Shown one piece after another: positions 8,262 to 58,055 of a DNA stretch of 64,000 bases. How positions within the stretch are numbered: position 1 is the stretch's first letter; each line of letters starts with the position of its first letter. The notes under the pieces are model-generated. The model worked only from the letters and a program-made list of their open reading frames with translations. It made no database searches and had not been told where the DNA came from. Origin of the DNA: Azolla caroliniana (taxonomy: Eukaryota; Plantae; Polypodiophyta); contig JBHGNT010000011.1 in assembly GCA_043228905.1 (NCBI GenBank), positions 10,664,001 through 10,728,000 on the forward strand, read 5' to 3'. Position numbers and translations under genes: made by a program.

Positions 8262-8917
8262 GTAATGAGGCATAGAACGAACTCTATGACGGCCTCCAAC
8301 TCCACAAGCACCTCCAACTTGGAAGACGTGTGGTTCGTCAATTCCGGCGCCTCACATCACATGACATCTCACAAAGAGTGGTTTCGTGGTTTATGAACGC
8401 TGGATCGACCTGACTACATAGAGATGGGAGACGACACCACGCATCCCATTCGGCACATCGGAACCGTTCCATTCGGCAACGATGGCAAGAACAATTGCAT
8501 CAAGAATGTCTTGCATGTGCCCACGATAACGACGAATTTGGTCTCGGTAGGCCAAATCATGGAGCAAGGAATGGAAGTTCGCTTCAACAAAGAAAGATGC
8601 TTCATCGAGAAAGATGGCCAACTCATAGCGAAGGGGCGGAGAGACGGTCGAATGTTCATCCTTGATTCAAACGAGGTGAAATCGGCAATGTATGCTAAAG
8701 GTCTCAAAACTGAGACAAGTATCGAGTTGTGGCACAAGAGAATCAACCACATAAACTTCCAATGGCTCCGAGCAATGCAAACCAAGGGAGTCGTCATCGG
8801 ACTTCTAACATTCGAGTCAAAACGAGTTGACCGAGTATGCGAAGCGTGTCAACTCGGCAAACAACTTCGACTCCCATTCCCGAAGGAGAGCCACGCGAGC
8901 AAAGGCCTCCTCAACGT

Positions 8918-9705
8918 TGTCGTAGTGTATTTCGTACACTACGTGAAAAAGTAAAAATAATATAACCGATTTAATTACATATAAATAAATAAAATAATAT
9001 ATCAAGATATTTATCACGTACATAGGGCAAGATTCGAACCCTATACCTCCACATAGCCAAACCTCAACTTTACCATTATGCTACCTTATCTTTAATGTTC
9101 TACAAATAGATTTAATAACTATAAGTGCTTTATTTGCGCCTACCTTTATTAAAAGGTAAATCATGCATTTTTAGAGTGCGTGAATATTTTATAGAAAAAC
9201 GCAAGCAACCAAAAAGTGACTCATGCACATCTAGCGTGCATGAGCACTATATTTAGCAAATAAAAGCAAGGATTAGAAAAGCATCACATGCACATTTAGT
9301 GTGCATGAACATATTAGAAAAAAGCATGTAGCTATGCTTAGTCTCTCCCATCACTATATAAGGATGGGGAGCACAATGTAATAGGCGTGTGAAATATTTG
9401 GAAATTGGATATATTTCCGAAAACACCAACCGATTAATATAATCGTGGGATTCACGAAAATAATATAATCTATACTTGTGGGATTCACAAGTTTCTTATA
9501 TCTTTCTTTCAATCTAAATACATATTCTTATCTAAATATTGATTAATCGAATAAAATACACTCGTGGGATTCACGAAATTTCTATCTCTCTTTCTAATAA
9601 TCTATACATTACTAGCCTCATCTCATATTCTTCTTTCTCCTAGTCCAAAACCTCGGTGGTTCCCACCCGACTCACGCAAACGATCCGGAGCCGAAAGGCA
9701 CGACA
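8918..9705 (+). mobile_element. Solo LTR of the Trp-primed gypsy lineage, inserted in Copia-1 integrase
   Basis: TGTCGTAGTG…GGCACGACA. The 3' ~70 bp is near-identical to the LTRs at 44106 and 50843. TSD ACGT/ACGT (4 bp). Confidence 0.93.
9021..9090 (-). other. tRNA-like A-box/B-box cassette inside the gypsy solo LTR
   Basis: Minus strand reads TAGCATAATGGTA…GGAGGT…GGTTCGAATC, with tRNA-like spacing. Confidence 0.7.
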
Positions 9706-11027
9706 ACGTCATACACTTGGATGTATGGGGACCAGCTCAAACGCCGACGATCGGCGGATGCCGATACTACGTAACCTTCATCGACGACTACTCCCGCTAC
9801 ATGTGGATCTACCCGATGAAGAAGAAAAGCGAAGTGCTCTCCCACTTCCAAAAGCTCAAGCGTCAAGTCGAAAAAGAAACCGGTCGGCACATTCAATGCC
9901 TACGATCGGATGGAGGAAAGGAGTACTTCTTTGACGAATTCACCTCCTACCTCCAAAGTGAAGGCATTCAAAGAGAATTCTCGTGCCGACACACACCCCA
10001 ACAAAATGGAGTCGCCAAAAGGAAGAATCGACAAATGCTCGAGGTCGCACGTGCCATGATGCATGAAAAGCACATGCCGAATTTCTATTGGGTCGAAGCA
10101 GCATCCACGACCGTCTATCTCATGAATCGATGCACCACCAATGGACTCCATGAGCTAACTCCCTACGAGCTCCTTGTCGGAAGGAAGTTGATCCTGTCGC
10201 ACCTCAAGGTGTTTGAAAGCATTGCGAATGTACGCATCCCGAACCAACACCGAGGGAAGCCTGATGCGAAGTAAGAGGAATGTATCCTCATAGGATACTC
10301 ATCCGCGAAGAAGGCATACAAGTGCTACAACCCTTCTACCCGAGCGGTTCGAGTAAGTCAAGATGTAGTCTTCAACGAGTCCGCATCTTGGTACGCACCA
10401 GAGACAACTTCGACTCCGACTCTACTCGACCCGGAATCCACCGAACAAGAGGTAGAAGATGGAGATCGCTTCGAACACATGTTCGAAGAAAGTTCGATTA
10501 CGGCAAGGCCTAGTGGGCCACAAGAGCCCCCTCGCGGCCCAGGCACGTCGTGGCCAAGTACGAACTTGGACAAAGGCAAAGGTAAGATGCTCGAATACGA
10601 AGTCGACCACCCTGACGACAATGATTCGGATGGATCGGCTCCCTCATTAGACAGTGAGTTTGGTGTACCCATCATGCGTACACCCGGAGTAAAGAAGGCG
10701 CTCACATCGGCGAGCGAAAAACTTCGACACTCTTCTAGAGAGAAGAATCTCGTCACTCGGCTCAGCTACAATGAGTATATGGCCCATCATTACACCTTCG
10801 CAATGAAGGTAGCGGTTGAACAAGAGCCTGAGAGCTCTACAGAAGTAGTTTGTAACCCGTGATGGGTGAAAGCACTCGGCCAATTTTGCACAAGCCTTCA
10901 CCACAGGCTTGAGGGGGAGGAACCGAAACTGCCACAAAGAAGTCAACGCTGAAAGAAACAATACCGACCATCCAAAGCCGAAGCCGATTCAACCGAATCG
11001 ACGATCGTGCTTGAGCTTGAGGGGGCG

Positions 11028-11136
11028 TGTTGAGAGATCAAGCTCGTCAACATTTCTAACTAGATTCTATCTAGGTAACTACGAAGTTACACGGTTGACT
11101 AACTAACTAAACTAAGTTGAGCTTGATCTCTCAACA
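11028..11136. repeat. Fold-back palindrome in the 3' LTR position of Copia-1
   Basis: TGTTGAGAGATCAAGCTC…GAGCTTGATCTCTCAACA forms perfect 18-bp arms with an inner GTCAAC/GTTGAC pair, immediately after the PPT. It resembles the U3 start of the Copia-2 LTR (TGTTGAGCAAGCAAGCTCAACTAG). Confidence 0.92.
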
Positions 11137-11176
11137 CATATCTTCAATTATTTGGTTAACACATTTATTTTGTCCA

Positions 11177-11700
11177 TTACATTACTAATAATATGAGGAA
11201 CTTGTGCTCAAAGTGGTTTCCGCCTTTTGAAAGACTTGGGTTCAAATCAAATAGTATACTGACTACATCCATCGGTAACATGTAAAATTGGAATATCTTG
11301 ACAAAAAACTTGTAAGCCAATTCATGAGTTGTTATTGTGATTTTAGTTGGTATAAACCTCACTAGTTTTGTAAGTTGATTGATAACAATTCATGTAGAGT
11401 CATGACATCTTTTTGTTCAATGTAGGTTAACAATAATAACAATAAACCCCATACATTAACTTTACGCCACTCAACCCTAATAGTTGTTACTTTGTTAAAG
11501 CTTTGCTTTATGATTTTATATAGAAAAACAAACAAAGATGCTAAGGATAATGTAAAACAGAATGTTGTGGAGGTGGTGATGGAGACCAAGTCCATGTTGG
11601 CAACATTTCACTGGTTTTATAGATTGCGGAGTTAATTTGTATTTCACTAGTAAACTTCCTTTGGTATTAAGGATTAAGCAATGGTTGAATTCATTCATAA
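11177..11700 (-). mobile_element. Degraded gypsy integrase fragment
   Basis: RFIPTKITITTHELAYKFFVKIFQFYMLPMDVVS resembles the gypsy integrase core (HFIP…GLP..IVSD). Confidence 0.5.
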
Positions 11701-17300: not shown

Positions 17301-19140
17301 TCCTCGTATCCATCCACATGCACACACGTGTGCATGTGTTCACATATGTATCGACTCACAATTACATTTATGCCCCCTACACATACACAACATTATGATA
17401 ACATTCGACCCTCGCTCATCACACTTGACTCTCCGTACATCTCGTACGAGGTAACAACGGGCCAAAGGGGGGCTTGGCCTCATAGACCCCTTAATGCAGA
17501 GTCGTGCATTGCTGGCTAAAATGGTGGTTCGCTGCCTCCTGCCAGGTAAGGGGTGCTGGAAGGTACTTCTTCGCAACAGGCTGCAAGTAGGGACTCCCAA
17601 GTATGGTAGGCCTTGGCCCGACTCCTTGAATTGGTGCTGCACGAGTGGAGTCCCACCCAGGCTGGCTTGCCATCCGGAGGATAGGGTCACGAACTCCATC
17701 TTGCGGGCATGGTGCCATATACGACAGCATTTGGTCAAGCACACCCCGGAGACATTGACCGAATGGACTAGACAGCCACTATTCTGGAATCCTCATGTGC
17801 AAACGAATGACAACGCGATGCTAGGGCAACTTAAGGGCCTAGCATGGGGAAAGTTGGCACAAACAGGCCTCCTATCTATAGACGATTGGAGACGCATGGC
17901 TGATTCAGGAAGAGCCCAAGAGGACCTTTTCCCTCCCCTCAAGGGAGCTACGAAAATGCGGAGACTGATAGCTGAGGCAGTTGACAGGGTTCTGATGGGG
18001 GAGGCGAGAGAACATGCATGGTTCGGTCTCTTTGACGAGGCTGGAATGGTCAAGTCGCTAAAGGGCATGAGCGGATCGGGGAGTGATACAGTTTTTGGGG
18101 ACAGCCAGAGCAGCGGCTCTTGGCACCCAATCCGAGTGGTGGCACAGATTGATAACATCTGGAAGACAGACCCGGATGTTGCTAAGGTGGAACCCCATTG
18201 GAGGTTAAGGGTATACGGTTGTCGTCCCCTTGTCGATCTGGATTGGGACCCCGGGGATTTCAGATGGAAACATGACGATAGACTCCACCACTTCTTCGGT
18301 TACACCACTAAATTGGGTCGGACTTTGCAACTGCAGCGAGGCGGCCCCCTTCGCAACGGCTAGCGAACATTGGGCATCCCCGATGAGGCGCTCATTGCCT
18401 TTTGGAAGGGTCTTTGGCGTCTCCACATGCATGAAAAGATCAAGCTCTTTTGGTGGCAGATCGGTCATAATGTGGTGCCCGTTGGCGAATGGTTAGATAA
18501 ACGTGGTGGCCCGTTAGGCTGCCCACTGTGCTCTCTACCTATTGAGTCTCTGAGACATTGTTTGTGGGATTGCCCTCAAGCTCAAAAGGTATGGGATAGA
18601 GTGACTCGCCTCCTTGTGGCATGTGACGTTGAAGGAACAGCCTCGTGGAGCGCTGCGGCATGGATTGATCACTCGGTCGAAGGGTGGACGGACGCCGTCA
18701 ATGCGGATAGTTGGTGCTATGTATGCACGAGAGGCAAAATCGTCAAGATCCATTTTGAAAGAGGCTTGCAGCCCGCATCCCCTAGGTTTCCGGAAATCTG
18801 GATGTTGATCGCAGGTTTCACCTTGTGGTATATATGGAAAGCGCGTTGCCTCAAGGTCTTCCAAGGTACGGTACGACCCTCGGAGGAAGTGATCATGGAC
18901 ATATGGTTCGCGCTTATCAGCTGCCTACGAGGGCAACTAGAAGAGGTTTGCAGCCACTCCAACGACGTGACCACTGCCCGTTTGCGCTTTTGGCAGAAAT
19001 GGCGGAACACACCTATGGTGATGCAAGGCGGGAGTGGCCCGAGGTGGAACTACCAGCCCCCACGTTGGTTGTTTCCTATTCACCTGCCACCCTCTCTTCG
19101 GTGTAGGCCCCAAGAGCCGACTCGTACGAGGCCACATTGA
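14322..19140 (+). pseudogene. LINE ORF2 (APE endonuclease, RT, zf-RVT) with in-frame stops and a solo-LTR insertion
   Basis: Motifs ILTWNVQG, LQEHH, YAPN, GDFN, RLDRIY, SDH, WRPITILN, LDFEKAYD, QGCPLAP, YADD, CPLC…HCLWDC. Stops at 14814, 15987 and 18361. Confidence 0.92.
16945..17456. mobile_element. Solo LTR inserted in LINE ORF2
   Basis: TGTTA…TAACA ends and TSD GCGGG/ACGGG. Removing it restores QPRAKGGLGL. Confidence 0.85.
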
Positions 19141-25225: not shown

Positions 25226-25262
<37 letters not shown>

Positions 25263-41776: not shown

Positions 41777-42553
41777 CATAGTACGTAAAATTCGTGTTCG
41801 TCAGGCTTATCATTCGTTTTCCTACGTTGGAAAACGAACACGAATGATATTAAAAAGTTCGTGTGTTTTTTTTTTCCTTTTTTTTCATTTTTTCCTTTTT
41901 TTTTCGTTTTTTCCCTCTTTCTCCCTCTTCTTCTCTGCACGTAACGTTACGCTCTCCTCTCCTCTCCCACCTAGCCTCCAACGATCTGCATAGTGCACAC
42001 TGCTTACCAAGTTTCAACAACTCACGACATTTAGGTATGATTAGAATTTAGGTTTAATAATCGCTATTAGGGTTTAAATTTCCAAAACGAAATTTCAGAA
42101 ATTTCTCTAATGAAATTTCTGAAATTTTAAAGATGAAATGTCTGAAATTTCAAAGATTTCATGTCTGAAATTTCCAAAATGAAATTTCTATGATGAAATT
42201 TCTGAAATTTCAGACATGAAATCTCTAAATTTTCATGGCTGAAATTTCTGAAATTTCAGAGATGATCAGACATGAAATTTCTGAAATTTCAGAGATTTCA
42301 TGTCTAATCATCTCTGAAATTTCAGACATTTCATGGCTGAAATTTCTGAAATTTTTGCAATTTCTGAAATTTCTGAAATGTTTTTTTTTTGCAATTTTTA
42401 AATTTTTTTTACCTTGAAAAAATATTTATCTTATAGTAAATAGTTTAACCAAAAGTATGGTATTTATCATTCTTCAAGGGTGTTTACCCTTCTCAAATGA
42501 TTGAATCATTCTTGAACACAAATGCACGAATGGTGCGCATGGTTCATACTATG
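41777..42553 (+). mobile_element. hAT-type MITE with internal GAAATTTC(T/A) minisatellite, inserted in the Copia-2 zinc knuckle
   Basis: TIR CATAGTA…TACTATG and a 7-8 bp TSD (G)TTGGTAC. Removing it restores ECWYCGKKGH. Confidence 0.9.
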
Positions 42554-44190
42554 TTGGTACTGTGGCAAAAAGGGCCACAGGGAAAGCGAGTGCTGGAAGA
42601 AGCGTGCCGATTCGGACAAATCCGAACCCGGCAAAACTGGTCGGGAGAACTGGCAAAGCTCGCACTACGCGGAAGGATCCGGAACTGGGAAAACCGGTAA
42701 AGGGCCAGCCTTCGTGATGAAACACAAGGATAACTCGATGAAGAAGACTACTTCCAAATCGGAGGAAGTATGGTACGTTGATTCCGGAACATCCAACCAC
42801 ATGACAAGCCATGAAGAGTGGTTCTCCTTTTTGGAGAAGCTGGAACAATCAGGGATTGTCGAAATTGGAGACGACACCCCTCACCTGATTGTGCATGTCG
42901 GAGAAGTCCCTTTAAGCCATGTCGGACAAAAGGGGAAGCAGATGAACGTACTACACGTTCCGACTATCACAAAGAACCTGGTGTCAGTTGGGAAAATCGT
43001 CGACCAGGGGATGCCAGTGCGTTTTACGCACCTAGGGTGCTTCATCGAGGAAGAGGGCTGGATAATTGCGCAAGGGCGCAAAGACGGGAGGATGTTCATC
43101 CTCAACACTAATGATGTCGGCACCGCTATGTTTGCAAATGGGCAGAAGGTCGAATTGGACATCGACCTGTGGCACAAGCGGATCAGCCACATCACTTATC
43201 GGAGGCTTCAAGACCTGCAATTGAAATAAGTCGTTTTCGGTTTGCCGAAATTTAGTGGCCAGAAGGCTGAAATTTGTGAAGCCTGCCAACTTGGGAAGCA
43301 ACATCGGCTTCCATTTCCCACCGATCGAAACCGGAGCCATAACAAGCTCGATTTAATCCATTTGGATGTATGGGGACCGACACAAAACGTTAGTCTTGGT
43401 GGGAGTCAGTATTTTGTCTCCTTCATCGACGACTACAGCCGATACACATGGATCTACCTCATCAAGAGGAAGAGTGAAGTCTTCAAGTGTTTCCGGAAAC
43501 TTCAAAGCTTGGTTGAATGGGAAACGGAGAGGAAGATCAAGTGCTTGCGGTCGGATGGCGGGAAAGAATACTTTTCCGGCCAATTCAATAGTTATCTGCA
43601 GCAGAACGGAATTCAGAGAGAATTTAGCTGCAGGTACACATTGGAGCAAAACGGTGTGGCCGAAAGAAAGAACCGGTCGATTATCGACGTGGCAAGGGCA
43701 ATGCTGGAGGAGAAGAGTATGCCCCATTTCTTTTGGGCCGAGGTGGTCCGGACGACTGTCTACATCCAAAACTGGATCGGTGACAAGGTGTCAACACATG
43801 AGTTGTATTTCGGGCGAAAGCCGAATTTGAGACACCTTCGAATATTCGGTAGCATAGCATATGTGCATGTACCGGATGAGAAGCGGAGGAAGCTGGATCT
43901 GAAGTCGGAGAAATGCATTCTAGTCAGTTACTCACATGAGCAAAAGGGGCATAAGTGCTTTAACCCCCGGACTAAGCAAATCCGAGTAAGCCGAGATGTT
44001 GAGTTTGATGAGACGACATCATGGTACTCCTTATTGACTCTAACTCCCAAACCGGGTGATACCAAGTTGCGCCGGTCTTCCCGCCTGAAGAACCCCGTTA
44101 CACGGTGTCGTAGTGTAGGTTGCACACTATGTGGAAATTATATTTTTGTCCCTCCGGATAGAGAATGGAGTGCTCGGTGAGAACCGGAAG

Positions 44191-44285
44191 AAAACGGCAT
44201 ACCGGCAAGGAGGAAAAACGGCATACCGGCAAGGAGGGAAAACGGCATACCGGCAAGGAAGAAAACGGCATACCGGCAAGGAAGA
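44191..44285 (+). repeat. 23-24 bp tandem repeat in U3 (4 units in 5' LTR, 5 units in 3' LTR at about 50928-51044)
   Basis: Unit AAAACGGCATACCGGCAAGGA(G/A)G. Confidence 0.9.
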
Positions 44286-44332
44286 GCCGGATAAAGAGAC
44301 ATAAATGTAAAAAGAAAGGAAATACTCACTAC

Positions 44333-44404
44333 TGCGCAAGGCGTGATTCAAACTCTGCACCTCCACGTTGACAAACCCCAACCTTACCATTACATTAACT
44401 TATC
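44333..44404 (-). other. tRNA-like A-box/B-box cassette in Gypsy-A LTR (second copy at about 51093-51164)
   Basis: Minus strand reads TAATGTAATGGTAAGG…TTGTCAA…GGAGGTGCAGAGTTTGAATC, followed by a T5 tract about 25 nt later. Confidence 0.65.
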
Positions 44405-44946
44405 TTAAGTGTTTTAAATATAGATTTAATACGTATAAGACCTTTATTTATGCATACCTTTATTAAAAGGTAAATCGTGTATTTTTTTAATATATGAAAA
44501 AGAAAAACACGAGACACTAAAAATAACTCATGCACATCTAGCGTGCATGAGCCCTATACTTAGGAAATAAAAAAGCATCACATGCACATTTTAGTGGACA
44601 TGAACACTTTTTGTAAAAGAAAAAAAAAGCATGAAGCCATGCTTAGCTCTTCCTTCCTTATATAAGGAGGAGAGAAATATATAAAGGGTTGTTGATTATT
44701 TGGATTAAGGATTAATCAATACAAAAATTATTCGTGGGATTCACGATTTATACATCTACTTCTCTCTTAACACCCTAAGTACCAATTAATATAGTATACT
44801 CGTGTGATTCACGAGTTTCTTATCTTTCTCTTCGCTATTTATTCATAATTAATCTTTATCTCACGAACTTCTTTCTCCTAGTCCAAGACCTCTGTGGTTC
44901 CCACCCGACTCACGCAACGATCCGGAGCCGAAAGGCACGACACAGT

Positions 44947-44963
44947 TGGTGAACCCGACGTGA
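44947..44963 (+). promoter_or_regulatory. Primer-binding site complementary to cytosolic tRNA-Trp
   Basis: TGGTGAACCCGACGTGA is the reverse complement of the plant tRNA-Trp 3' end (TCACGTCGGGTTCACCA). It lies 4 nt after the LTR. Confidence 0.85.
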
Positions 44964-44980
44964 AAACGGGTGGCAAGGAG

Positions 44981-47020
44981 ATGGAGGCTCAACAAGCTAA
45001 CAATATGATGGCGATGTTCGAACGGATGCTTCAAGAACAACGCACGATGTCGGAGATTTCGGCATCAGTAGAGCGGCTCGTGCAACGCAACGGGCAATTT
45101 AATGGTAAGGATGTGTCGCGATATTTGCAGGACTACAAGGCGGAGATGCTCCGGTGCCGGGCTTCGGAAGGACTGCAAGTGACATCCTTTAACCGGGTGG
45201 CGACCGACGGGCTTCAAGGGAGTATCCACGGGTTGCAACAACAAAATCCGACGTGGGAAGCATTCGAAGAGGCGTTAAAGACCACGTTTGCCATCGAGGA
45301 CTCCTCCAAGGCAACGCGGAGGGGATTCGAGGATTGGGTGGAAACGTCAGGTAAGGGGCTGAAGGTCCTCGAAGTGTTTTCGACATTCGAAAGTCGGTTC
45401 GGGAGGTTGTCCGCGAGAGATCAAACTATTCTTGCACCGGACAAAGTCATCATGTTTTTGCGAGTTGTGGACGTCCGGGACCGGAAAGATCTCGGAGTGC
45501 TTCTTGAGGACACGACCACCGAAAGCGGCCTCACCGAAACATGGGAAAGCGTGCGGGATATCGTCGCGCGGTACATGAAGAGGGGGCAATGGCTTGCCAA
45601 CGAAGAAAAGAGGGTTTCGGAACCGATTCCGAAACCGAGAATGGGACTGGAAGACCATCAACCGAGGGCTCGGGAGATTACGGCCGAGAAGGGAGTCGAT
45701 GCGTCTACGGTGGAGCAGCTGCTGAAGGAGATGGAGAATCTAAAGATCGCGATGGTGAAGAAGTCGGATGACCGCCCCACAAGCTCCAAATATACGGATC
45801 GACGGTGCATATGGTGCGATAGCGCCGAACACGATCGGAGGGATTGCGACGACCATAAGGAGGCGCTACGACGGGATCTCATCTACTACGAGGGAAACCG
45901 GATTCATTCGATGGACTCTCGGAAGCCACTCCGACCGAACTTCCGGAAAGGCGGCATGAAGAAGGTGCTCGAGGAGGAGTTAGCGGCAAGAAGCAACTAT
46001 GCGACAACCGCGGGAATATGTGTCGGGGAGTCATCGGGAGCGAAGGCGTCTTTCTGGCCGGAGGTGCTAGGAAACACCGAGAAAACCGACTCCAACGATA
46101 TCTGAAACACCGCGGAAGGCGTCCGGGAAGCTACGGGATGGGAGTGCCCTGTCGACAAGAATAGCATATACGCCCTGTGTCAATTACATGAGGTGTATGT
46201 GGACGAGAAATGACGGCGCACGGAGGATGCGGCCGGACCATCGAAGATACCGGAAAGCTGGAACTCCGGAGGTAAGGGAAAAGAAAAGGCGACTCCGGCA
46301 TTCAAGCTCGCCTCGGACATAGAACAACAAACCGACTTGAAAAGAGTGTTCGAGGAAAGAATCTTGGATAGCCGGGTAGATTTTTCGTTGCGGGAACTAC
46401 TCGGAATAGCGAAGAAGGAGTTTCACGATCTTCTCGTGGATCTCGTGAAAAGGAAGAGACAAAGTACGGAGGAAAATGCTCCAAGGGTGAATGCAAATAC
46501 CGTTTCAACGAACGACACCGAAGTGGAAGGCGAAATTCCGAACTCCCACTATACAAGGCCACACTGGGCCCGTGCGACTACGGAGACTCCGGTCCGAATC
46601 GGCAACATCAAAGAACCCGTGCTAGCATTGATTGATCACGGATCGGAGATCAACTTGATGTCCAAGGAGTTCTACCGAAAGGGGAAGTGGCCTATAAACA
46701 CCAACCATGGATGGAAGATTCGGGCAGCCACGAAAACGACAGAAGACCTATTTGCGGCTTGTCCGGATGTGACGGTAAAGATCGGGGATGTCGAAATTGA
46801 CCAAAATTTCTTTGTGCAGGATGAGGTTTCACATTCTGTCATCCTCGGCCAACCCTTTATCACGGCTTCACGGATGGAGACGAAGGTGCTCGATAGTGGT
46901 GCGGCTTTTGCGCGAATTCGGAGCCAAAACGGAGGGAAATCCGTCCAATTCCTAACGGTGCCGGCAAATCACGAAAGGAACAAGAGGGAACTCTTGCCCC
47001 AAGTGAGAATGGATTTTTAA
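44981..47020 (+). pseudogene. Gypsy-A gag-protease with two in-frame TGA stops
   Basis: FNGKDVSRYL, zinc knuckle CIWCDSAEHDRRDC and protease ALIDHGSEIN are all in one frame. TGA stops at 46103 and 46211. Confidence 0.88.
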
Positions 47021-47063
47021 AGCGGACTGTTGCGGAGTGGGGAAGTGATAGTCCGAGAAGCCC
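47011..47063 (+). promoter_or_regulatory. Putative -1 ribosomal frameshift signal between protease and pol
   Basis: G_GAT_TTT precedes the TAA, followed by stem GGACTGTTGC/GTGATAGTCC. The -1 frame is open into the ORF at 47155. Confidence 0.7.
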
Positions 47064-47113
47064 TGATACCCCACACAGGAAGAAAACTCTCGGAGCAAAA
47101 CAAGTACGAATCG

Positions 47114-47574
47114 GCCCGGATGGGGCATCTACGTACACGGCCGTAACCGGAGGAATGAAGAAACAATACCGACAAGTGGAGGATAAGTTACGGTCGGCAT
47201 CAATAATAAAAGAAGACGAAGAAATCGTGGGAGTGATCGAGGAAGTGTTCTATGGGAATACACTACAACGGCTTGAAGAGCTTGCGGAAGATAAAAGCCA
47301 AGGGAACCGGGTAGTCCCGGTGGAATCGGTCGAGATGTACGTAGATGCCCGGATGGGGCATCTACGTACACGGCCGTAACCGGAGGAATGAAGAAACAAT
47401 ACCGACAAGTGGAGGATAAGTTACGGTCGGCATCAATAATAAAAGAAGACGAAGAAATCGTGGGAGTGATCGAGGAAGTGTTCTATGGGAATACACTACA
47501 ACGGCTTGAAGAGCTTGCGGAAGATAAAAGCCAAGGGAACCGGGTAGTCCCGGTGGAATCGGTCGAGATGTACG
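47114..47574 (+). repeat. 233-bp tandem duplication that frameshifts the pol N-terminus
   Basis: 47114-47341 is repeated from 47347. ORFs 47155 and 47388 begin with identical peptides in different frames. Confidence 0.95.
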
Positions 47575-50500
47575 AGATTGTTGCGAAAATGGGGCCGGAT
47601 GCGCTCCGCAAAGAAGAAGCAATGGTAAGTACGAAATACAAGACCGTGGAGAAGAAGGTGAAACCGGCCGCGGGACCACTACCCGCCGATAGCGAACAAA
47701 AGAGGAAAGAAGTCTCGGGAGATCCGACACTTCGGAAGACCGTGGATATCGGACATGCCTTCACAGATGAGACCCGGAAGAAACTTCGGATCGGTGGAGG
47801 TGGGTTCCTCTTACAAGAAGAAGAAAAACGGTTTCGAGAGATGTTGGAGCAACACGGCAAAGCATTCGCGTTCACATCGAGGGAGATCGGATGCATTGAT
47901 CCAAAGATAGTGGAGCCGATGGTGATCTTCACGATTGATCATGTACCGTGGAACCTGAAGCCGATTCCGGTGCCACGGGCGCATATTCCGAAAGTCATCG
48001 ACTTGCTCAAGGAGAAGGTGGCGATGGGGATTCTAGAGCCATCAAGTGCTCCGTACTCAAATCGATGGTTTACGGTTCCGAAGAAGAATGGGTCACTCCG
48101 ATTCATCCAAGACTTGCAACCGGTGAACAAGGTCACGATCCGGAACTCGGGAGTCGGTCCGATAGTGGACGAATTCGCGGAAGCTTTTGCCGGACGTGCG
48201 ATATACTCCATCGGGGACCTATACTCGGGGTATGACCAATTCCAACTAGCCGTGGAGAGCCGAGACATCACTACCATGCGGACACCGATAGGACTAGTTC
48301 GAATGTGCACACTACCACAAGGAGCGACAAACTCGGTTGCACATATGATGAACGCGATGAACAAGGTGCTTCGAGATTGCATCCCGGAGATAACGATGCC
48401 GTTTCTAGATGACATTCCGATGAAAGGATGCGCGGTGGAAGAAAAAGATGAGACTATGGATGATCGGGGATGCCGAAAGTTCGTGGTCGACCATATTCAT
48501 GATTGCGAGAAAGTGTTGCGAAAGCTAGAAGATGTGCACCTAACACTTTCCGGGGAGAAATCGGCATTCGGGCAAGAAGAAATATTGGTGGTCGGACATC
48601 TATGTGGACCCTACGGCCGAAGACCGTCACCAACAAAGATCGATGCGATTCAAGCTATGAAGGAAGTATGTGAGTCAACATCGGAAGTCCGAAGGTTTCT
48701 GGGTGCGTGTGCATTCTATCACATATGGATTCCGCACTATGCACATATAGCGGACCCGCTCTATCACTTGTTGCGGAAAGGTAAGAAATTCGAGTGGAAA
48801 CCGGAACACACTAAAGCCATGAGGAAGCTCAAGAAGACACTATGGAGGGCGGAATCACTTAAGAAGCCAAGCTACGAGCGGCCAATCATAGTAACGGTTG
48901 ATACAAGTCCAACCGGTATCGGGTGGGTCATCAATCAAGCCGACTCGGATGGTTCGCGGTATCCGATCCGATTTGGGGCAAAGGTCCTCAACGAAAGGCA
49001 ACGCGGATATGCACAAGTCAAAAGAGAATTGTGGGGAGTCGTGTCGGCGATAAAATCGGATCGGGATTATTTGATCGGAGCTGAAGTGGTGATCGAGACG
49101 GATTGTCTTCCGATACTCGGGATGATGCGGTGTTGTACGATACCGGATGTGGCTATGCTAAGGTGGATTGCATATGTCAAGTCACTTAATCCGGAGGTTC
49201 GACACATCTCGGGGAAGGACAACGCGGTAGCGGACATGTTATCGAGGGCGCGGTTTGAAGACGACATAACCGAATCAGATAATGAAGAAGTTTCCGAAGA
49301 CTACTTCACGTCAGAACACATATGCCGAGTGAACGTGATCCGAGAATTCCGGGAAGAAGAATACGAGGGGGAAACCTTGATGATCGGGAAGATGCTACAA
49401 GAGGTCGAGGATTCAACCAATGATAAAGAAAGGAGAGCCGAGATCCGAAGGAAGAAGAGGCAAGTCCAAAAGTTCTTCTTGGAAAACGGTTTAATATGGA
49501 GGACGCCGAAAAGACCGGATGGGATACCACTTCGAGTAGTCGGGACGAAAGAGCAACGAAACCGGATAATGTCCGAGTTCCACGAATCCGATTGGGCTGG
49601 ACATCGAGGAACATGGGCAACTTTTGTGAAAATCAAGCAAAGATATTGGTGGAAGAACATGTATAAAGATGTCGCGGAGTTCACAGAAAGCTGCGAGAAA
49701 TGTCAAGTCTACTCCGGGGTCCGACACCGAGATGAGCTGCATCCGACATTCTCACCGACAATCAACTTCAAGTGGATGGTCGACATTGTAGCTATGCCGA
49801 CCGGGATTGGACAAAAGAAATACTTGGTGTTAGCTCGAGAAGATCTCACAAACCAAGTTGAAGGTCGAGCGCTTCGGAGGAAAACGTGTGCCGCGGTGTG
49901 CCAATTTCTTTTGGAAGAAGTGTTTTGTAGGTACGGCTGCGTAGGACAAGTGATTGCGGACCGGGGAGAACTCGACTCGGACAAAGCTAGGGGATTCTTC
50001 GCCAAACATGGAGTTCGGTTAACGTTGACAACGGCCTACAATCCGGAGGCCAACGGGAAGATCGAACGAGGACATAGTCCGATCGTGAAAGCACTTGCGA
50101 AGGCATGCGACGGAAGGGTGAAGGATTGGCCACAAATGCTTCCGTATGCACTATGGGCGGATCGGACGACGCATAGCTCCGTGACCGGTTACATGCCGGC
50201 AGAACTCATGACCGGACAAGCACCGGTAATGCCAACGGAAACCGCAATCGCGACATGGACAATACTACCGTGGAAGGAAGAGATGAGCCGGGAAGAACTA
50301 CTAGCGGTCCGGATACGACAACTGGAGGGAAGACCGAAAGATGTAGCGGAAGCGTCACGCCGACAACAAGAAGCACGGTTCCGGAACAAAAGCCGGTTCG
50401 ACACAAAGCACCGACTACGACCGAGGAGGATTGAAGAAGGAGATTGGGTGATCGTCTATGATAGTAGCTTGGACCATCAACATACAACGATGCGGAAATT

Positions 50501-50855
50501 CGCGAAAAGGTGGTTCGGGCCGTACGAGGTTCGGAAGGTCTTCGACAACGGGACGTACCGACTGTCCGAGTTGGATGGAACAATACTACGAGTGCCTATA
50601 GCCGGGAAGCGGGTGAAGATTTTCAAGAAGCGGACCGACGACAAACCTTATGTGATCCAAGTCGAGGCCGACAACGAGGAGCAATCGGACGAAGACCACA
50701 ATGATGCGGGAAGCGAAGAAAGTGGATTACAACTCATAATCGACATAAGGGGAGAATCGGAGGAAGCTTCGGATGAAGACGGATACGAAGAATCAAGAAC
50801 TTCGGCACATACCGGAGGATGTGCGGGTTTGGAGGGGGCGAGTGTCGTAGTGTAG
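47388..50855 (+). CDS. Gypsy-A pol (RT, RNaseH, integrase; no chromodomain)
   Basis: 1155-aa open frame with DLYSGYDQ, LPQGATNS, PFLDD, VDTSPTGIG, HHCC zinc finger, ADRGE, NPEANGKIER and WFGPY. Confidence 0.92.
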   Translation: MKKQYRQVEDKLRSASIIKEDEEIVGVIEEVFYGNTLQRLEELAEDKSQGNRVVPVESVEMYEIVAKMGPDALRKEEAMVSTKYKTVEKKVKPAAGPLPADSEQKRKEVSGDPTLRKTVDIGHAFTDETRKKLRIGGGGFLLQEEEKRFREMLEQHGKAFAFTSREIGCIDPKIVEPMVIFTIDHVPWNLKPIPVPRAHIPKVIDLLKEKVAMGILEPSSAPYSNRWFTVPKKNGSLRFIQDLQPVNKVTIRNSGVGPIVDEFAEAFAGRAIYSIGDLYSGYDQFQLAVESRDITTMRTPIGLVRMCTLPQGATNSVAHMMNAMNKVLRDCIPEITMPFLDDIPMKGCAVEEKDETMDDRGCRKFVVDHIHDCEKVLRKLEDVHLTLSGEKSAFGQEEILVVGHLCGPYGRRPSPTKIDAIQAMKEVCESTSEVRRFLGACAFYHIWIPHYAHIADPLYHLLRKGKKFEWKPEHTKAMRKLKKTLWRAESLKKPSYERPIIVTVDTSPTGIGWVINQADSDGSRYPIRFGAKVLNERQRGYAQVKRELWGVVSAIKSDRDYLIGAEVVIETDCLPILGMMRCCTIPDVAMLRWIAYVKSLNPEVRHISGKDNAVADMLSRARFEDDITESDNEEVSEDYFTSEHICRVNVIREFREEEYEGETLMIGKMLQEVEDSTNDKERRAEIRRKKRQVQKFFLENGLIWRTPKRPDGIPLRVVGTKEQRNRIMSEFHESDWAGHRGTWATFVKIKQRYWWKNMYKDVAEFTESCEKCQVYSGVRHRDELHPTFSPTINFKWMVDIVAMPTGIGQKKYLVLAREDLTNQVEGRALRRKTCAAVCQFLLEEVFCRYGCVGQVIADRGELDSDKARGFFAKHGVRLTLTTAYNPEANGKIERGHSPIVKALAKACDGRVKDWPQMLPYALWADRTTHSSVTGYMPAELMTGQAPVMPTETAIATWTILPWKEEMSREELLAVRIRQLEGRPKDVAEASRRQQEARFRNKSRFDTKHRLRPRRIEEGDWVIVYDSSLDHQHTTMRKFAKRWFGPYEVRKVFDNGTYRLSELDGTILRVPIAGKRVKIFKKRTDDKPYVIQVEADNEEQSDEDHNDAGSEESGLQLIIDIRGESEEASDEDGYEESRTSAHTGGCAGLEGASVVV

Positions 50856-51954
50856 GTTGCACACTATGTGGAAATTATATTTTTGTCCCTCCGGATAGAG
50901 AATGGAGTGCTCGGTGAGAACCGGAAGAAAACGGCATACCGGCAAGGAGGGAAAACGGCATACCGGCAAGGAGGGAAAACGGCATACCGGCAAGGAGGAA
51001 AACGGCATACCGGCAAGGAAGAAAACGGCATACCGGCAAGGAAGAGCCGGATAAAGAGACATAAATGTAAAAAGAAAGGAAATACTCACTACTGCGCAAG
51101 GCGTGATTCAAACTCTGCACCTCCACGTTGACAAACCCCAACCTTACCATTACATTAACTTATCTTAAGTGTTTTAAATAAAGATTTAATACGTATAAGA
51201 CCTTTATTTATGCATACCTTTATTAAAAGGTAAATCGTGTATTTTTTTAATATATGAAAAAGAAAAACACGAGACACTAAAAATAACTCATGCACATCTA
51301 GCGTGCATGAGCCCTATACTTAGGAAATAAAAAAGCATCACATGCACATTTTAGTGGACATGAACACTTTTTGTAAAAGAAAAAAAAAGCATGAAGCCAT
51401 GCTTAGCTCTTCCTTCCTTATATAAGGAGGAGAGAAATATATAAAGGGTTGTTGATTATTTGGATTAAGGATTAATCAATACAAAAATTATTCGTGGGAT
51501 TCACGATTTATACATCTACTTCTCTCTTAACACCCTAAGTACCAATTAATATAGTATACTCGTGTGATTCACGAGTTTCTTATCTTTCTCTTCGCTATTT
51601 ATTCATAATTAATCTTTATCTCACGAACTTCTTTCTCCTAGTCCAAGACCTCTGTGGTTCCCACCCGACTCACGCAACGATCCGGAGCCGAAAGGCACGA
51701 CAACGGTACGGGTATAATGAGTACATGGCGCATCATTATGCGTTCATGACTAAGGTGGCGGAAGCGCGTGAGCCGGAGAGCTACGCAGAAGCGGCAAAGG
51801 ATGCAAATTGGCGTGCCGCTATGGAGGAAGAAATGCGGGCACTAGATGCCAACAACACATGGGACCTCGTTGACCCTCCCTGACACTATAAACCGATCGG
51901 TTGCAAATGGGTGTACAAGGTAAAGTACAATGTTGACGGTTCGGTTAACAAGTA

Positions 51955-52761
51955 CAGATCCGGATGCACCTCGATGACTAGGAGAAAATGGCTTTCGTCA
52001 CCGAATGGGGAGTGTTTGTTACCGTAGTAATGATGTTCGGACTAAAAATGGCACCGGCAACGTTCCAGAGGATCATCATGGAAATATTCGGAGAATTCAT
52101 ACCGGCATTCATGTAGGTGTTTCTGGATGACTTCGCCGTCTATAGTTGGGAAGGAGATCACTTTCAGCACCTCCGACTGTGTCTAGAGAAATGTCGGGCT
52201 TACCGGCTAAGCTTGAATCCGGCAAAATGTGTATTCGGAGTGTCAAGCGGGGCGCTATTAGGACACATTGTGAGCAAGGAAGGAATTGTCATGGACCCGG
52301 ACAAAGTAAAAGCAATCTTGGAGGCATCGGCACCAACAACAACCCAAGCATTAAGCCGTTTCTTAGGCCAAATCCGGTGGCATAGCCGAATGCTCTGGTA
52401 TTTCACGGACCTAGCTACATCACTGCATGCTGCGGTACACCGAACATCGTTCTAGTGGACCGACACCGAAGACAAGGCGTATCGGGCACTCAAAGTACTA
52501 TTGTCGAAAAGCGCCGGTAATGCAACCACCGGATTGGGCTAAGGAGTTTCATGTGTTCGTGGATGTGTCCGACATTGCAATCGGAAGTGCACTGATGCAA
52601 CTTACAGAGCCAAGGTGGTATTGGCCCGTATATTACGCAAGCCGAAAGTTATCCCAAGCCGAGCGAAATTATTCCACCACGGAGAGGGAAGCTTTGGGCA
52701 TGATCTACAGCGTGACAAAATTCAGACATTATTTGTTGGGAAGGAAATTTTCCTTCCACGT
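51955..52761 (+). mobile_element. Degenerate RT-RNaseH fragment (Gypsy-C), same family as Gypsy-D
   Basis: QIRMH…AFVTEWGVF…FLDDF…YYASRKLSQAERNYSTTEREALGM is collinear with the minus strand of about 62755-63560. Several stops. Confidence 0.9.
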
Positions 52762-53247
52762 TGTCGTGCCTTTCGGCGCCGGATCGTTTGTGTGAGTCGG
52801 GTGGGAACCACCGAGGTTTTGGACTAGGAGAAAAGAAAATTGTAAGGCAATGAAGAATATGAAATATGTTGTAAGAAAGAAAGATATGAAAAACTCGTGA
52901 ATCCCACGAGTATAGTGTATTAGTGAGTACTCAAATTAAGAGACGAAAATAGTTAGCAAACTCGTGGATCCCACGATTATATTATATTAATCAACCCTTG
53001 TAAAAATAATCAACAACCTCTATACATCTTTCTCTCTTCCTTATATAGTGTTGGAAGAGTCTAAGTTTATCACATGCAAGCATCATGCTTTTCCTATTTT
53101 TAGTTTTCATGCACACTGCATGTGCATGATTAGCTTTCTATCTCATCTTTTCTTTTAACTCGAGTGTCTATGCATGAATAACTTTTTGTACCACGCATGT
53201 CTAGAAATTTTACATGGGATAAAGTTTAGTATAACTTTAAAATTCAT

Positions 53248-53318
53248 AATACGCTAGTATAATGATAAGGCTTAACATTATTAACATGGAGGTGCAAGGT
53301 TCGATTCTTGCCCTATGC
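53248..53318 (+). other. tRNA-like A-box/B-box cassette in Gypsy-B LTR (antisense to element)
   Basis: TAGTATAATGATAAGG…GGAGGTGCAAGGTTCGATTCTTGC, with T-stem-like GCAAG/CTTGC pairing. Confidence 0.7.
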
Positions 53319-55873
53319 ATGTAATTTATAATTTTATACTTTCTTCTATTTACAAATATGTCTCTTCATTTGGTGAGAGACTCTCACCGGCCTTCTTCAT
53401 CCGGCTCTTGCCGGTTCTGCTTCATCCGGTTCTCGCCGGTTTTCTTTATCCGGTTCTTACCAGTCCTCTTCGTCCGTTTCTTACCGACTCTCACCGGCCT
53501 TCTTCATCCGGCTCTCGCTGGTCTCCTTACCGGTTTCGGTCCTCACCGGTTCTTCCTTCCGGTTCTCACTGGGTACTGGATATCATATCCGGAGAAACCA
53601 AAAATGTAAATTTTCACGTAGTGTGCGAATTACACTACGACACTCGCCCCCTCCGAACCCGCACATCCTCCGGTATGTGTCGAAGTCCGCGATGCTTGCT
53701 ATTCACCTTCATCCGAAGCTTCCTCCAATTCTCCCCTTAAGTCGACTATGAGTTGTAATCCACTTTCCTCGCTTTTCGCATCACCGCGATCTTCGTCCGA
53801 TTGCTCCTTGTCGGTCTTGTCTAGGATCACATAGGGTTCTTCTTTAGTTCGCTTCTTGAAAATCTTCACCCGTTTCCTGGCTATAGGCACTCGTAGCGTC
53901 GTTCCATCCAACTCGCATAGTCGGTAAGTTCCGTTATCGAAAACTTTCCGAACCTCATATGGCCCGAACCACCTTTTCGCGAACTTCCGCATCGTTGTAT
54001 GTTGATGATCCAAACTACTGTCGTAGACAATCACCCAATCTCCTTCTTCAATCTTCCGCGGTTGTAGTCGGTGCTTTGTGTCGAACCGGCTTTTATTCCG
54101 GAATCGCGCTTCTTGTTGTCGGCGTATTGCTTCCGCTATGTCATCCGGTCTTCCCTCCAGTTGTTGTATCCGGACCGCTAGTAGTTCTTCCCGGCTCATC
54201 TCTTCCTTCCATGGTAGCATTGTCCATGTCGCGATTGCGGTTTCCGTCAGCATTACCGGTGCTTGTCCGGTCATAAGTTTTGCCGGCATGTAACCGGTTA
54301 CGGAGCTATGTGTCGTCCGATCCTCCCGTAGTGCATACGGAAGCATTTGCGGCTAATCCTTCACCCTTTCATCGCATGCCTTCGCAAGTGCTTTGACAAT
54401 CGGACTATGTCCTCGTTTGATCTTCCCGTTGGCTTCCGGATTGTATGCCGTTGTCAGTGTTAACCGAACTCCATGTTTAGTGAAGAATTCCTTAGCTTTA
54501 TCAGAGTCGAGTTCTCCCTGATCCGCAATCACTTGTCCTACGCACCCGTACCTACAAAACACTTCTTCCAAAACAAATTGACATACTGCAGAACACGTTT
54601 CCTTCGTAGCGCCCGACCTTCTACTTGGTTTGTGAGATCTTCCCGAGCTAACACCAAGTACTTTTGATGTCTGATCCTGGTTGGCATGGCTACAATATCG
54701 ACCATCCATTTGAAGTTGATTGTCGGTGAGAATGTCAGATGTAACTCATCTCGGTGTTGAACTCCGGAGTAGATTTGACACTTCTCGCAGCTTTCCGTGA
54801 ACTCCGCGACATCTTTGTACATATTTATCCACCAATATCTTTGCTTGATCTTCCCAAATGTTGCCCATGTTCCCCGATGTCCAGCCCAATCAGATTCGTA
54901 AAATTCGGACATTACCTGGTTTTGTTGCTCTTTTGTCCCGACTACTCGAAGTGGTATGCCACCCGGTCTTTTCGGCTCCCTCCATAAAAATCCATTTTTC
55001 AAGAAGAACTTTCAGACTTGCCGTTTCTTACTTCGGATCTCGGCTCTCTTCTCTTTATTGTCCGATGATTCCTCGATTTTTCGTAGCATTTTCCCGATCA
55101 ACAAGCTTTCTCCCTCGTACTCTTCTTCCCGGAATTCTTCGATTACGTCCACCCGGCATATGTGCTCCGAAGCAAAGTAGTCTTCGGAAACTTCTTCATT
55201 ATCGGATTCGGTTATGTCATCTCCGAACCGCGCCCTTGATAGCATATCCGCTACAACGTTGTCTTTTCCGGAGATGTGTCTTACCTCCGGATTAAATGAC
55301 TTAACATATGCAATCCATCTTAGCATAGCCACATCCGGTATCGTGCAACACCGCATCATCCTGAGTATCGGAAGACAATCCGTTTCGATCACAATCCATT
55401 TCGATCACTACTTCGGCTCCAATCAAATAATCTCAATCCGATTTGATTGCCAACACGACTCCCCATAATTCTCTTTTAACTTGTGCATATCCGCATTGCC
55501 TTTCGTTGAGAACCTTCGCTCCAAATCGGATCGGATATCGCGAACCTTCCGGATCGGCTTGATTGATGACCCATCCGATTCCAGTTGGACTTGTGTCAAC
55601 CGTTACTATGATCAGTTGGTCATAGTTCGGCTTCTTTAGTGCTTCTGCCCTCCGTAGTGATTTCTTGAGCTTCTTCACGGCTTTGGTATGCTCCGGTTTC
55701 CATTCAAACTTCTTACCCTTCCGCAACAAGTGATAGAGTGGGTCCGCTATATGTGCATAGTGCGGAATCCATATGTGGTAGAATGCACATGTTCCAAGAA
55801 ACCTTCGAACTTCGGATTGTGACTGGCATACTTCTTTCATAGCTTGAATCGCATCGATCTTGGTTGGTGACGG

Positions 55874-56672
55874 TGTCGAGATATTACGCAAGTGCGTGCG
55901 GAATAGAGGCGGGACCGCGGGGGTCTCGAACCAAAGAGCAAGCGAGGGAGGAGAAAGAGAGAGAACCGGCTACGCAGGACCGGGGATACACAGGGACACG
56001 GCCCTTCAGCACGGAGAACGCGAACAGACACCGACACAGACGGATGCGAATGACTAAATATGTGTATTAACAAAATGGCTAACACGACTACAACCCCCGA
56101 TGGGGCACAGGTTGGTTGCAACCGAACAGGCCGGCGAACAGATGCCGATGCCTGTTCGCTTTGACGCACAAACGGGGAAATGGGGGGGGGTAGCAGGTCG
56201 GAGGTGCTGCCGGAAGCACTCGGGCGTTCCTCGAAACAGCGCGAGCCTCCCCGGAACCCTGCACAGAAAGCTTTGGAGCTCAAGAAGGAAGGAAACGGAG
56301 AGAGCGAAGCGTCCAGAAACGGTTCGACAGCACTTCGTCCTCTCCGCGCCCGATCCCTGCAACAGCTCTTTCCCGCTCCTTATATAGGCCGACGAACAGG
56401 CCGTCGTGTCAGCTTTATTCCCTGTCCCTTTTGGACAGGGATCCGCTCCGTTTTTCACAGATCCGCGTAGTTACGCCGCCGACTCGTACAGTTCGCGCGC
56501 GCGACCGAAAAGACTGTTCGCGCGGTCTTTGTCTCCACTTGAGTTAGGGCCCGTTCCTGCCGATTATCCTCTCAATTCGTTTCTATGTACAACTCGGAGC
56601 GTGCGCGCGTGAAGAACCGGTTCCCACGCCTTGGTGCGCCGATTCCGCCTATGGACGGTTTTCTTCACGACA
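55874..56672 (+). mobile_element. GC-rich solo LTR inserted in Gypsy-B pol
   Basis: TGTCGAG…CACGACA ends, 4-bp TSD ACGG/ACGG and TATATAGG at about 56381. Removing it restores GRRPSPTK. Confidence 0.88.
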
Positions 56673-58055
56673 ACGGTCTTCGGCCGTAGGGCCCACATAG
56701 ATGTTCGGCTACCAATATTTCTTCTTGTCCGAATGCCGATTTCTCTCCGGAAAGTATTAGATGCACATCTTCTAACTTCCGTAACACTTTCTCACAATCA
56801 CGGATATGGTTGACTACAAACCTTCGGCATCCCCGTTCATCCATAGCTTCATCTTTTTCTTCCACCGCACACCCTTTCATCGGAATGTCATCTAGGAACG
56901 GCATCGTTATCTCCAGTATGCAATCCCGGAGCACCTTGTTCATCGCATTCATCATATGTGCGACTGAGTTCGTCGCACCTTGTGGTAGCATACACATCCG
57001 GACTAATCCTATCGGTGTCCACATGGTAGTGATGTCTCGGCTCTCGACGGCTAGTTGGAATTGGTCATATCCGGAGTATAGGTCTCCGATGGAGTATATC
57101 GCACGAACGGCAAATGCTTCCGCGAATTCGTCCACTATCGGACCGACTCCGGAGTTCCGGATCGTGAACTTGTTCACCGGTTGCAAATCTTGAATAAATT
57201 GGAGTGACCCATTCTTCTTCGGAACCGTAAACCATCGATTTGAGTACGGTGCATTTGATGGCTCTAGAATCCCCATCGCCACCTTCTCCTTGAGCAAGTC
57301 GATGATTTTCGGAATATGCGCCCGTGGCACCGGAATCGGCTTCAGGTTCCATGGCACATGGTCAATCGTGAAGATCACCATCGGCTCCACTATCTTCGGG
57401 TCAGCGCATCCTATTTCTTTCGATGTAAATGCAAATGCTCTCCCATGTCGCTCTAGCATCCCACGGAATCGTTCTTCTTCATTCTTTAATAGGAACCCAC
57501 CTCCACCGATCCGAAGTTTCTTCCGGGTCTCATCCGTGAAGGCATGTCCGATATCCATGGACTTCCGAAGTGTCGGATCCCCCGAGACTTCTTGTTATTC
57601 GCTTAGCCGGACAAGGCCTAACACAAGGTGTCACGGAGACACTTCACCAAAGGGTGATTACGGCATAGGATTAAGATTCAACGATTACACCGACTTACGT
57701 AGGTTACACGATTAGATTGCTTGGTTAATTACACGCGTAAGATATAACAGTGATTACAGAACGGAAATCAAGACAGAAGTACAAACATCATAAGCTCTAT
57801 TAATTATCCGCTGTCATTACAATAGGGTCCGGGCCTTTAAATAGGTTTCCGGCCCGTAGTACAAAACGGTGCCTCTCGCACCTATTCGGGATCCGTCCGG
57901 ATCTGGAACGGCATACCGTTTCCAGTCCGTCCGTCCACACTATCCTCATTTACAACCATATATAATTAATTCCGTATTTTGGACTCCTTGCCGGCCGGTA
58001 ACACATGGCACGCCCGTGGGACAGTACCTTGTACGTCGAACCCTTCTCGGCCCCT

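What the first reader, a model, noticed from the sequence alone, without database searches (positions are those of the whole stretch)
8914..56676. CpG-centred 4-bp target sites: all four insertions of the TGTCG…CGACA LTR group hit ACG(T/G) inside other retroelements
Seen: TSDs are ACGT (8914/9706), ACGG (44102/51703) and ACGG (55870/56673), plus flank ACGT at 52758 where only one end is visible. The duplications are 4 bp, whereas other LTR insertions here give 5 bp (CCTAC, C(G/A)TAT). All four lie in pol regions of other TEs. Known: most plant LTR elements make 5-bp TSDs with weak sequence bias. Inference: this integrase has no chromodomain and may read a central (possibly methylated) CpG, which would steer it into CpG-rich TE bodies and away from AT-rich genes. 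The sample is only n=4.
Basis: partly seen in the sequence, partly recalled or inferred. Interest (0 to 1): 0.72.

Follow-up and report, generated by a model that had tools for sequence, protein, structure and literature searches.

The report
Retrotransposon that inserts only at CG
Two families of plant jumping genes in this genome insert almost only into four-base sites with CG at the centre, a habit already published for the moss Phygy group to which they likely belong; the integrase likely reads the CG itself, and whether methylation of that CG matters is untested.

Summary
Observation confirmed and much strengthened. All four insertions have 4-bp duplications with a central CG; the missing end of the 52758 element lies just beyond the window (ACGT). 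Genome-wide, 1,095 of 1,179 host-facing LTR ends of the main family (93%) are NCG, against 3.0% CG in background. 76 of the other 84 are TG/CA, which is CpG decay. A sister family behaves the same. The preference is already published: Neumann et al. 2019 list Phygy Ty3/gypsy elements as 4-bp NCGN, tRNA-Trp primer, no chromodomain, all met here. Tree placement among Phygy references could not be tested. Added here: the site is VCGB with ACGT favoured, matching the foamy-virus VYRB rule narrowed to CG, and candidate integrase residues are conserved. Flank CG density equals that of random CG sites, so most steering into transposons is passive. No host-gene domain flanked 86 insertions (7 of 110 random CGs did), which fits selection or methyl-CG reading; nothing here separates the two. 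Kinase exons sampled are not AT-rich. An earlier scan note (e1-10618240) had filed related nested elements of this genome near Phygy. Verdict: new member of a known kind.

The parts
8914..9709 (+). Element A: solo LTR 8918-9705 with ACGT duplications (8914-8917, 9706-9709), inside a Copia integrase gene
44102..51706 (+). Element B: full-length Ty3/gypsy 44106-51702 (7,597 bp), ACGG duplications at 44102 and 51703, LTRs differ by 2 substitutions plus 23 gap columns; inside a Copia INT-RT linker
44947..44963 (+). Primer-binding site of B, complementary to the 3' end of host tRNA-Trp(CCA)
   Evidence: 63 genomic matches of T-loop plus PBS complement, 6 of 6 loci scanned are tRNA-Trp
44882..47379 (+). 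gag/protease region of B, broken into several frames; DUF4100 and aspartyl protease hits
47295..50855 (+). pol of B: RT, RNase H, integrase; no chromodomain and no second RNase H by Pfam
49527..50654 (+). Integrase. Conserved R146 and E148 (E148 aligns to PFV Ala188, a target-base contact); conserved Q318, H319, K324 in the predicted loop between the first two C-terminal strands
52758..57592 (-). Element C (same family group as B): 3' LTR 52762-53643 and pol to 57592, ACGT flank at 52758; 5' part and second ACGT lie beyond the window (L068:3348-6754); inside a gypsy RT-RNaseH
55870..56676 (-). Element D: solo LTR 55874-56672 of a sister family, ACGG duplications, inside C's pol
57588..64000 (-). 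Element E: unrelated gypsy nested in C, LTR 57593-58003, 5-bp TSD CTTCT; serves as a 5-bp comparison

Best explanation
These are Ty3/gypsy retrotransposons without a chromodomain that make 4-bp duplications centred on CG in 93% of surviving host-facing ends, likely members of the Phygy lineage, whose integrase likely selects the CG step directly as it bends the target DNA. Shown: the TSD rule, the element anatomy, the tRNA-Trp primer, and decay of the duplicated CG after insertion. Inferred: like the foamy-virus intasome, the enzyme cuts 4 bp apart and needs a sharp kink at a central pyrimidine-purine step; lineage-conserved residues (R146/E148 and the Q318-H319-K324 loop) would narrow that step from YR to CG. 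Because young retroelement bodies are the CG-dense part of this genome, insertions pile up there largely passively, and selection likely removes those that hit exons. Methylation of the target is probably not required, but this is untested.
For: 2,033 LTR-end matches split into 1,095 NCG, 44 NBH of which 38 NCA, 40 NKG of which 38 NTG, and 854 with A at position 2, of which 762 are exact PBS. Background CG is 2.97%. In 19 of 22 solo LTRs with a TG/CA right flank the left copy still reads CG, so most exceptions decayed after insertion. Sister family D: 22 of 22 right and 21 of 22 left flanks NCGN; 170 CGN ends genome-wide, while 98 of the first 100 of 170 DDN ends are the PPT junction. Three readable flanks in other families from metagenome contigs are NCGN, 3 of 3. 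Phygy features in Neumann 2019 are matched. First TSD base is T in 1 of 132 ends and last is A in 3 of 132, as in PFV's VYRB. Best solved relatives are PFV and Ty3 integrases. Flank CG density equals that of random CG sites.
Against: No Physcomitrium Phygy sequence was available, so clade membership rests on features only; B (7.6 kb) and D (about 7.3 kb) are slightly below the published 7.7-10.0 kb range. Insertions are somewhat more often in repeats than random CG sites by the wider test (64 of 86 vs 245 of 400, Fisher p 0.026; upper edge of the block-bootstrap range 44-74%) and more often in retroelement domains (22 of 86 vs 12 of 110, p 0.008, with a control thinned in CG-dense regions). 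That leaves room for methylation or chromatin targeting. The loop 319-326 has pLDDT under 50, and its match to the PFV Arg329 loop is by position only; no sequence alignment to PFV reached it. In PFV, Ala188 contacts bases outside the TSD and Arg329 its edges, not the central pair, so these residues do not by themselves explain CG choice. 3 of 22 decayed solos carry TG/CA on both sides.
Confidence: 0.7

Rival explanations
1. The integrase itself needs, or strongly prefers, a methylated CpG at the centre of the site, so it reads an epigenetic mark to stay in silenced DNA without a chromodomain.
For: CG alone is chosen among the four flexible YR steps. No host-gene domain at 86 sites vs 7 of 110 random CG sites. 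Only 13 of 86 sites lie in CG-poor DNA with no repeat hit vs 129 of 400 random CGs. Duplicated CGs later decay on both strands, 38 TG and 38 CA, which suggests methylation after insertion. Precedent for methyl-CpG-guided integration exists: CopiaMBD (PMC6673714, abstract).
Against: No MBD or other reader domain in pol by Pfam. Flank CG density and repeat rate are close to those of random CG sites. Exon avoidance is expected from selection alone. Decay after insertion says nothing about the state before it.
Confidence: 0.2
2. CG choice is by sequence, but a host protein or heterochromatin feature also tethers the complex to silenced repeats.
For: The modest excess in repeats over random CG sites. 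Phygy is reported enriched at liverwort centromeres (PMC12885004, passages) and nested in Tcn1 in moss (PMC6911290, passages).
Against: The excess is borderline and confounded by selection. The integrase tail after the SH3-like domain is a short acidic stretch that differs between B and D; no tethering motif was found.
Confidence: 0.09
3. Chance or mis-called element ends in four local copies.
For: n was 4 in the window; ACGT is palindromic and extends the terminal inverted repeat.
Against: 1,095 of 1,179 genome-wide. Non-palindromic sites (ACGG, CCGT, GCGT) are direct repeats on both sides, with 20 of 22 full-length D copies matching. Ends are fixed independently by the PBS and PPT junctions.
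Confidence: 0.01

Closest known systems
Phygy clade of non-chromovirus Ty3/gypsy elements (Neumann et al. 2019, PMC6317226; passages and supplementary file 5 read)
   Same: 4-bp TSD with NCGN motif (186 elements, 100%), tRNA-Trp PBS (81%), no extra domain, coding region fills the interior.
   Different: Described there as specific to Physcomitrella patens, 7.7-10.0 kb; here 7.3-7.6 kb in a host that is likely a fern. Phygy is since reported in a liverwort (PMC12885004) and in ferns (PMC13477047), one passage each. The VCGB/ACGT bias, the decay analysis and the flank controls are not in the passages I read.
Prototype foamy virus intasome and other 4-bp integrases (Serrao et al. 2015 PMC4422553, 2014 PMC4005685; passages read)
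   Same: 4-bp stagger, central YR step, T and A disfavoured at the TSD edges (VYRB); closest solved integrase by sequence and fold.
   Different: There YR is enriched only about 63% over random; here one YR step, CG, is nearly obligatory. Glu replaces Ala188. Outside the TSD the base at +4 leans G/T, not A/C.
Drosophila gypsy/Idefix-clade LTR elements (Linheiro and Bergman 2012, PMC3276498; passages read)
   Same: Ty3/gypsy elements with 4-bp TSDs and high-information palindromic target motifs shared by clade.
   Different: Their motifs are AT-rich (TATA, ATAT), not CG.
CopiaMBD of arthropods (de Mendoza et al. 2019, PMC6673714; abstract read)
   Same: LTR element accumulating in CpG-dense, transposon-rich DNA.
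   Different: It carries a captured MBD domain shown to bind methylated DNA; no such domain here, and the signal here is in the TSD itself.

Membership tests
Phygy | Ty3/gypsy domain order PR-RT-RH-INT | tested here: met
   Pfam on B
Phygy | No chromodomain and no additional RNase H | tested here: met
   No Chromo or second RNase H hit in B pol; no PF00385 among the 120 listed pol relatives; short acidic tail in B and D
Phygy | 4-bp TSD | tested here: met
   4 of 4 in the window; 20 of 22 full-length D copies with identical 4-mers
Phygy | NCGN target motif | tested here: met
   1,095 of 1,179 host-facing ends
Phygy | tRNA-Trp primer-binding site | tested here: met
   (6 of 6 loci scanned, of 63 matches)
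Phygy | Length 7,656-9,968 bp | tested here: inconclusive
   B 7,597 bp, D 7,259-7,337 bp: just below the range; the paper treats size as a weak classifier
Phygy | Phylogenetic placement of RT/RH/INT with Physcomitrella Phygy references | not testable with these tools
   Reference FASTA and element table too large to read; no Physcomitrium-named hits. The tree only shows B and D in one clade near Riccia sequences and far from element E
TatI | 4-bp TSD and tRNA-Trp PBS plus an additional (archaeal-type) RNase H | tested here: not met
   First two shared; no additional RNase H in B pol
Selgy | tRNA-Ala PBS and about 5 kb length | tested here: not met
   tRNA-Trp PBS, 7.3-7.6 kb
Methyl-CpG-guided retrotransposon (CopiaMBD-like) | Encoded MBD domain | tested here: not met
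   No MBD by Pfam in B's frames
Methyl-CpG-guided retrotransposon (CopiaMBD-like) | Preference for methylated over unmethylated CpG targets | not testable with these tools
   No methylation data or assay; indirect tests ambiguous

The most novel reading that the evidence does not exclude
Probability: 0.2. Interest if true: 0.75.

Novelty: new member of a known kind. Interest (0 to 1): 0.3.

Why it matters
The CG rule itself is in print for Phygy, so the finding is not a new kind of element. What it adds is scale and a handle on mechanism. More than a thousand ends show that the choice is close to absolute at insertion, far stricter than the YR bias of 4-bp retroviral integrases. It is shared by families whose pol proteins are only 62-79% identical. 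That makes this integrase a clean test case for how an intasome can read a dinucleotide, and for the open question of how plant gypsy elements without chromodomains end up in heterochromatin. If methylation mattered, it would be a route to epigenetic targeting that my searches did not find described.

Tried and rejected
Chance or shifted element ends: rejected. TatI and Selgy membership: rejected on RNase H, PBS and size. Extra steering to CG-dense DNA beyond the dinucleotide: not found at 100, 300 or 1,000 bp. 'AT-rich genes': not true of 30 kinase exons, a sample biased to single-exon domains. Mapping the C-terminal loop on PFV Arg329 by sequence failed; only Ty3 aligns across it. The AlphaFold model is moderate (mean pLDDT 70.6, loop under 50); Foldseek returns PFV and Ty3 integrases; a second structural aligner was not obtained. 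ESM Atlas gave only generic gypsy-type integrase clusters. Metagenome contigs were mostly collapsed repeats: 3 of 80 loci gave a readable host-facing flank, and many come from one series of records, so they are not independent hosts. Literature: among the 25 listed papers only Neumann 2019 holds 'NCGN'; searches showed no study of methylation dependence of Phygy insertion in their listings. Subscription journals are largely outside the library, and Neumann's additional files 1 and 3 could not be read.
Full report
1. Observation. A (8918-9705) and D (55874-56672) are solo LTRs. B (44106-51702) is a full-length Ty3/gypsy element with gag, protease, RT, RNase H and integrase and no chromodomain. 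C starts at 52762 on the minus strand; its other LTR ends 6.75 kb beyond the window and is followed by ACGT, which completes the fourth duplication. All four hosts are pol regions. A, B and C belong to one family group. D is a sister family with a different LTR; the pol of a full-length copy is 62-79% identical to B's in protein. Three other insertions have 5-bp flanks: CCTAC, C(G/A)TAT (ends only, LTR pairs not verified) and CTTCT.

2. Genome-wide test. A 24-base LTR end shared by A, B and C occurs 2,033 times. Of these, 1,095 are followed by NCG, 44 by NBH (38 NCA) and 40 by NKG (38 NTG). The remaining 854 have A at position 2 and face the element's interior: 762 are the exact primer site, and the position-2-A rows among the first 100 were primer-site variants. 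So 1,095 of 1,179 host-facing ends (92.9%) are CG-centred, or 86% if all 92 unclassified ends are counted against it. Background CG is 2.97% in 32 evenly spaced 10-kb regions of two contigs, a 31-fold enrichment. At least three of the 84 non-CG rows are element-internal junctions rather than host flanks; I left them in. I read 60 of those 84 loci: among 22 solo LTRs with a TG or CA right flank, 19 keep CG on the left and 3 have TG/CA on both sides. Most exceptions therefore decayed after insertion, and the rate at insertion is inferred to be about 98-99%. Family D: 15 of 16 host-facing ends, and 22 of 22 right and 21 of 22 left flanks of full-length copies, with identical 4-mers in 20 of 22 (seven ends were shifted by one base by my parser and corrected). 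Genome-wide 170 D ends are CGN; of 170 DDN ends, 98 of the first 100 are the PPT junction; CH and DC classes were not counted.

3. The site is narrower than NCGN. Over 132 ends from 86 insertions (64 main family, 22 D; locus L114 was not parsed), the first base is A 75, C 32, G 24, T 1 and the fourth A 3, C 26, G 28, T 75. In background, T starts 32% of NCG. The two ends of one insertion are not independent; the first 100 rows agree, with one TCG. ACGT is the commonest site, 28 of 86.

4. Where the insertions land. Flank CG density (about 5%) is far above random positions (3%; p about 1e-11) but equal to random CG sites (p 0.23-0.52). BLAST against background regions and the window finds repeats at 50 of 86 insertions, 214 of 400 random CGs and 112 of 400 random positions (p 0.47 and 3e-7). 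With insertion flanks added to the database the figures are 64 of 86 and 245 of 400 (p 0.026); a block bootstrap over the 32 regions gives 44-74% for random CGs. Pfam on frames touching the site gave retroelement domains at 22 of 86 insertions (69 had a frame to scan; one hit is a chromodomain, taken as a chromovirus) and host-gene domains at none. Random CG sites gave 12 and 7 of 110 (p 0.008 and 0.019). That control was spaced at 700 bp, which thins CG-dense repeats. Kinase exons have 49% GC and 4.1% CG, their flanks 2.1%, and retroelement bodies in the window 4.4-8.2%. Reading: most of the bias towards transposon bodies follows from where CG is; a smaller excess and the lack of exon hits remain, and fit either selection or methylation/chromatin targeting.

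5. Mechanism. The closest solved relatives of the integrase are those of prototype foamy virus and Ty3. Serrao et al. (PMC4422553, PMC4005685; passages) show that 4-bp integrases kink the target at a central YR step, disfavour T and A at the TSD edges (PFV: VYRB), and contact bases through Ala188 and through Arg329 in the C-terminal beta1-beta2 loop. The site here, VCGB, is that rule with YR narrowed to CG. Among 58 aligned integrases, R146 is kept in 54 and E148, which aligns to Ala188, in 54. In the predicted loop between strands 307-312 and 328-338, Q318 is kept in 56 of 58, H319 in 49 of 58 and K324 in 57 of 57. Element E, with a 5-bp TSD, has DQGG and a shorter loop. These are candidates only: the loop is poorly modelled, was not aligned to PFV, and the PFV contacts lie at and outside the TSD edges. 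I put direct sequence readout without a need for methylation at 0.7, methyl-CpG readout at 0.2 and added chromatin tethering at about 0.1.

6. Comparison with what is known. Neumann et al. 2019 (PMC6317226; passages; supplementary file 5 in full) state that Phygy elements prefer NCGN and list 186 elements with 4-bp TSDs (100%), tRNA-Trp PBS (81%) and no extra domain. The PBS here pairs with host tRNA-Trp. TatI and Selgy also make 4-bp TSDs but fail on RNase H or on PBS and size. Placement in a tree with Phygy references was not possible; additional files 1 and 3 of that paper, which I could not read, may already hold per-element TSDs with the ACGT bias. Named relatives come from Riccia, Ceratopteris and, more distantly, Chara. 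One host gene has its best named matches in ferns, in line with the fern lead in scan note e1-10618240; my Phygy reading predates that look-up. Phygy in ferns and a liverwort is mentioned in PMC13477047 and PMC12885004 (one or two passages each). Jedlicka et al. 2019 (PMC6911290; passages) report GC-centred 4-bp TSDs and Phygy nested in Tcn1. CopiaMBD (PMC6673714; abstract) is the precedent for methyl-guided LTR integration but uses a captured domain. Also consulted by passages without bearing on the verdict: PMC6839031, PMC7466625, PMC8282616, PMC13469084; PMC3276498 for Drosophila motifs.

7. Verdict. Real and strong, but a new member of a known kind. The additions are quantitative: near-absolute CG choice, the VCGB bias, post-insertion decay, and controls showing mostly passive steering. 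The methylation question stays open and is testable. Interest 0.3; the methyl-reading case has probability 0.2 and would merit 0.75.

Noticed in passing
window 57593-64000 (-) and L068:1-3348: Element E, a gypsy with identical LTRs and a 5-bp TSD (CTTCT), has no purine tract beside its 3' LTR; at 58004 onward the opposite strand reads like a tRNA primer site (TGGCACGCCC...). This resembles the dual-primer-site lineage in earlier scan notes on this genome; the tRNA was not identified here.
   Followed up: partly
window 58059-60995 (-): 979-aa open frame inside element E, downstream of pol, with no Pfam hit; an extra ORF of unknown role.
   Followed up: no
G000 C1-C4, rows: Many copies of the main family have LTR ends only about 2.4-2.9 kb apart instead of about 6.5 kb, likely non-autonomous derivatives; the ones read (L004/L005, L017/L018) have matching NCGN duplications.
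   Followed up: partly
window 47104-47569: 233-bp tandem duplication (98-99% identical) at the gag-pol junction of element B.
   Followed up: no
window 42516-64000 and L068: Deep nest: Copia host with B; then a junction near 51900 to a gypsy RT fragment holding C, which holds D and E.
   Followed up: partly
G000:C8:17796786-17823371 and C16:4989495-5105657: Clusters of tRNA-Trp-like matches (16 on C8, about 1.2 kb apart for most; 19 on C16); possibly tandem tRNA arrays. These loci were not scanned.
   Followed up: no
window 42075-42380: 23-bp tandem, partly palindromic repeat array inside the Copia host.
   Followed up: no
L251-L330: Relatives at 57-100% integrase identity mostly keep TGTCGT...CGACA termini and the same primer site, so the termini are lineage-wide.
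   Followed up: partly
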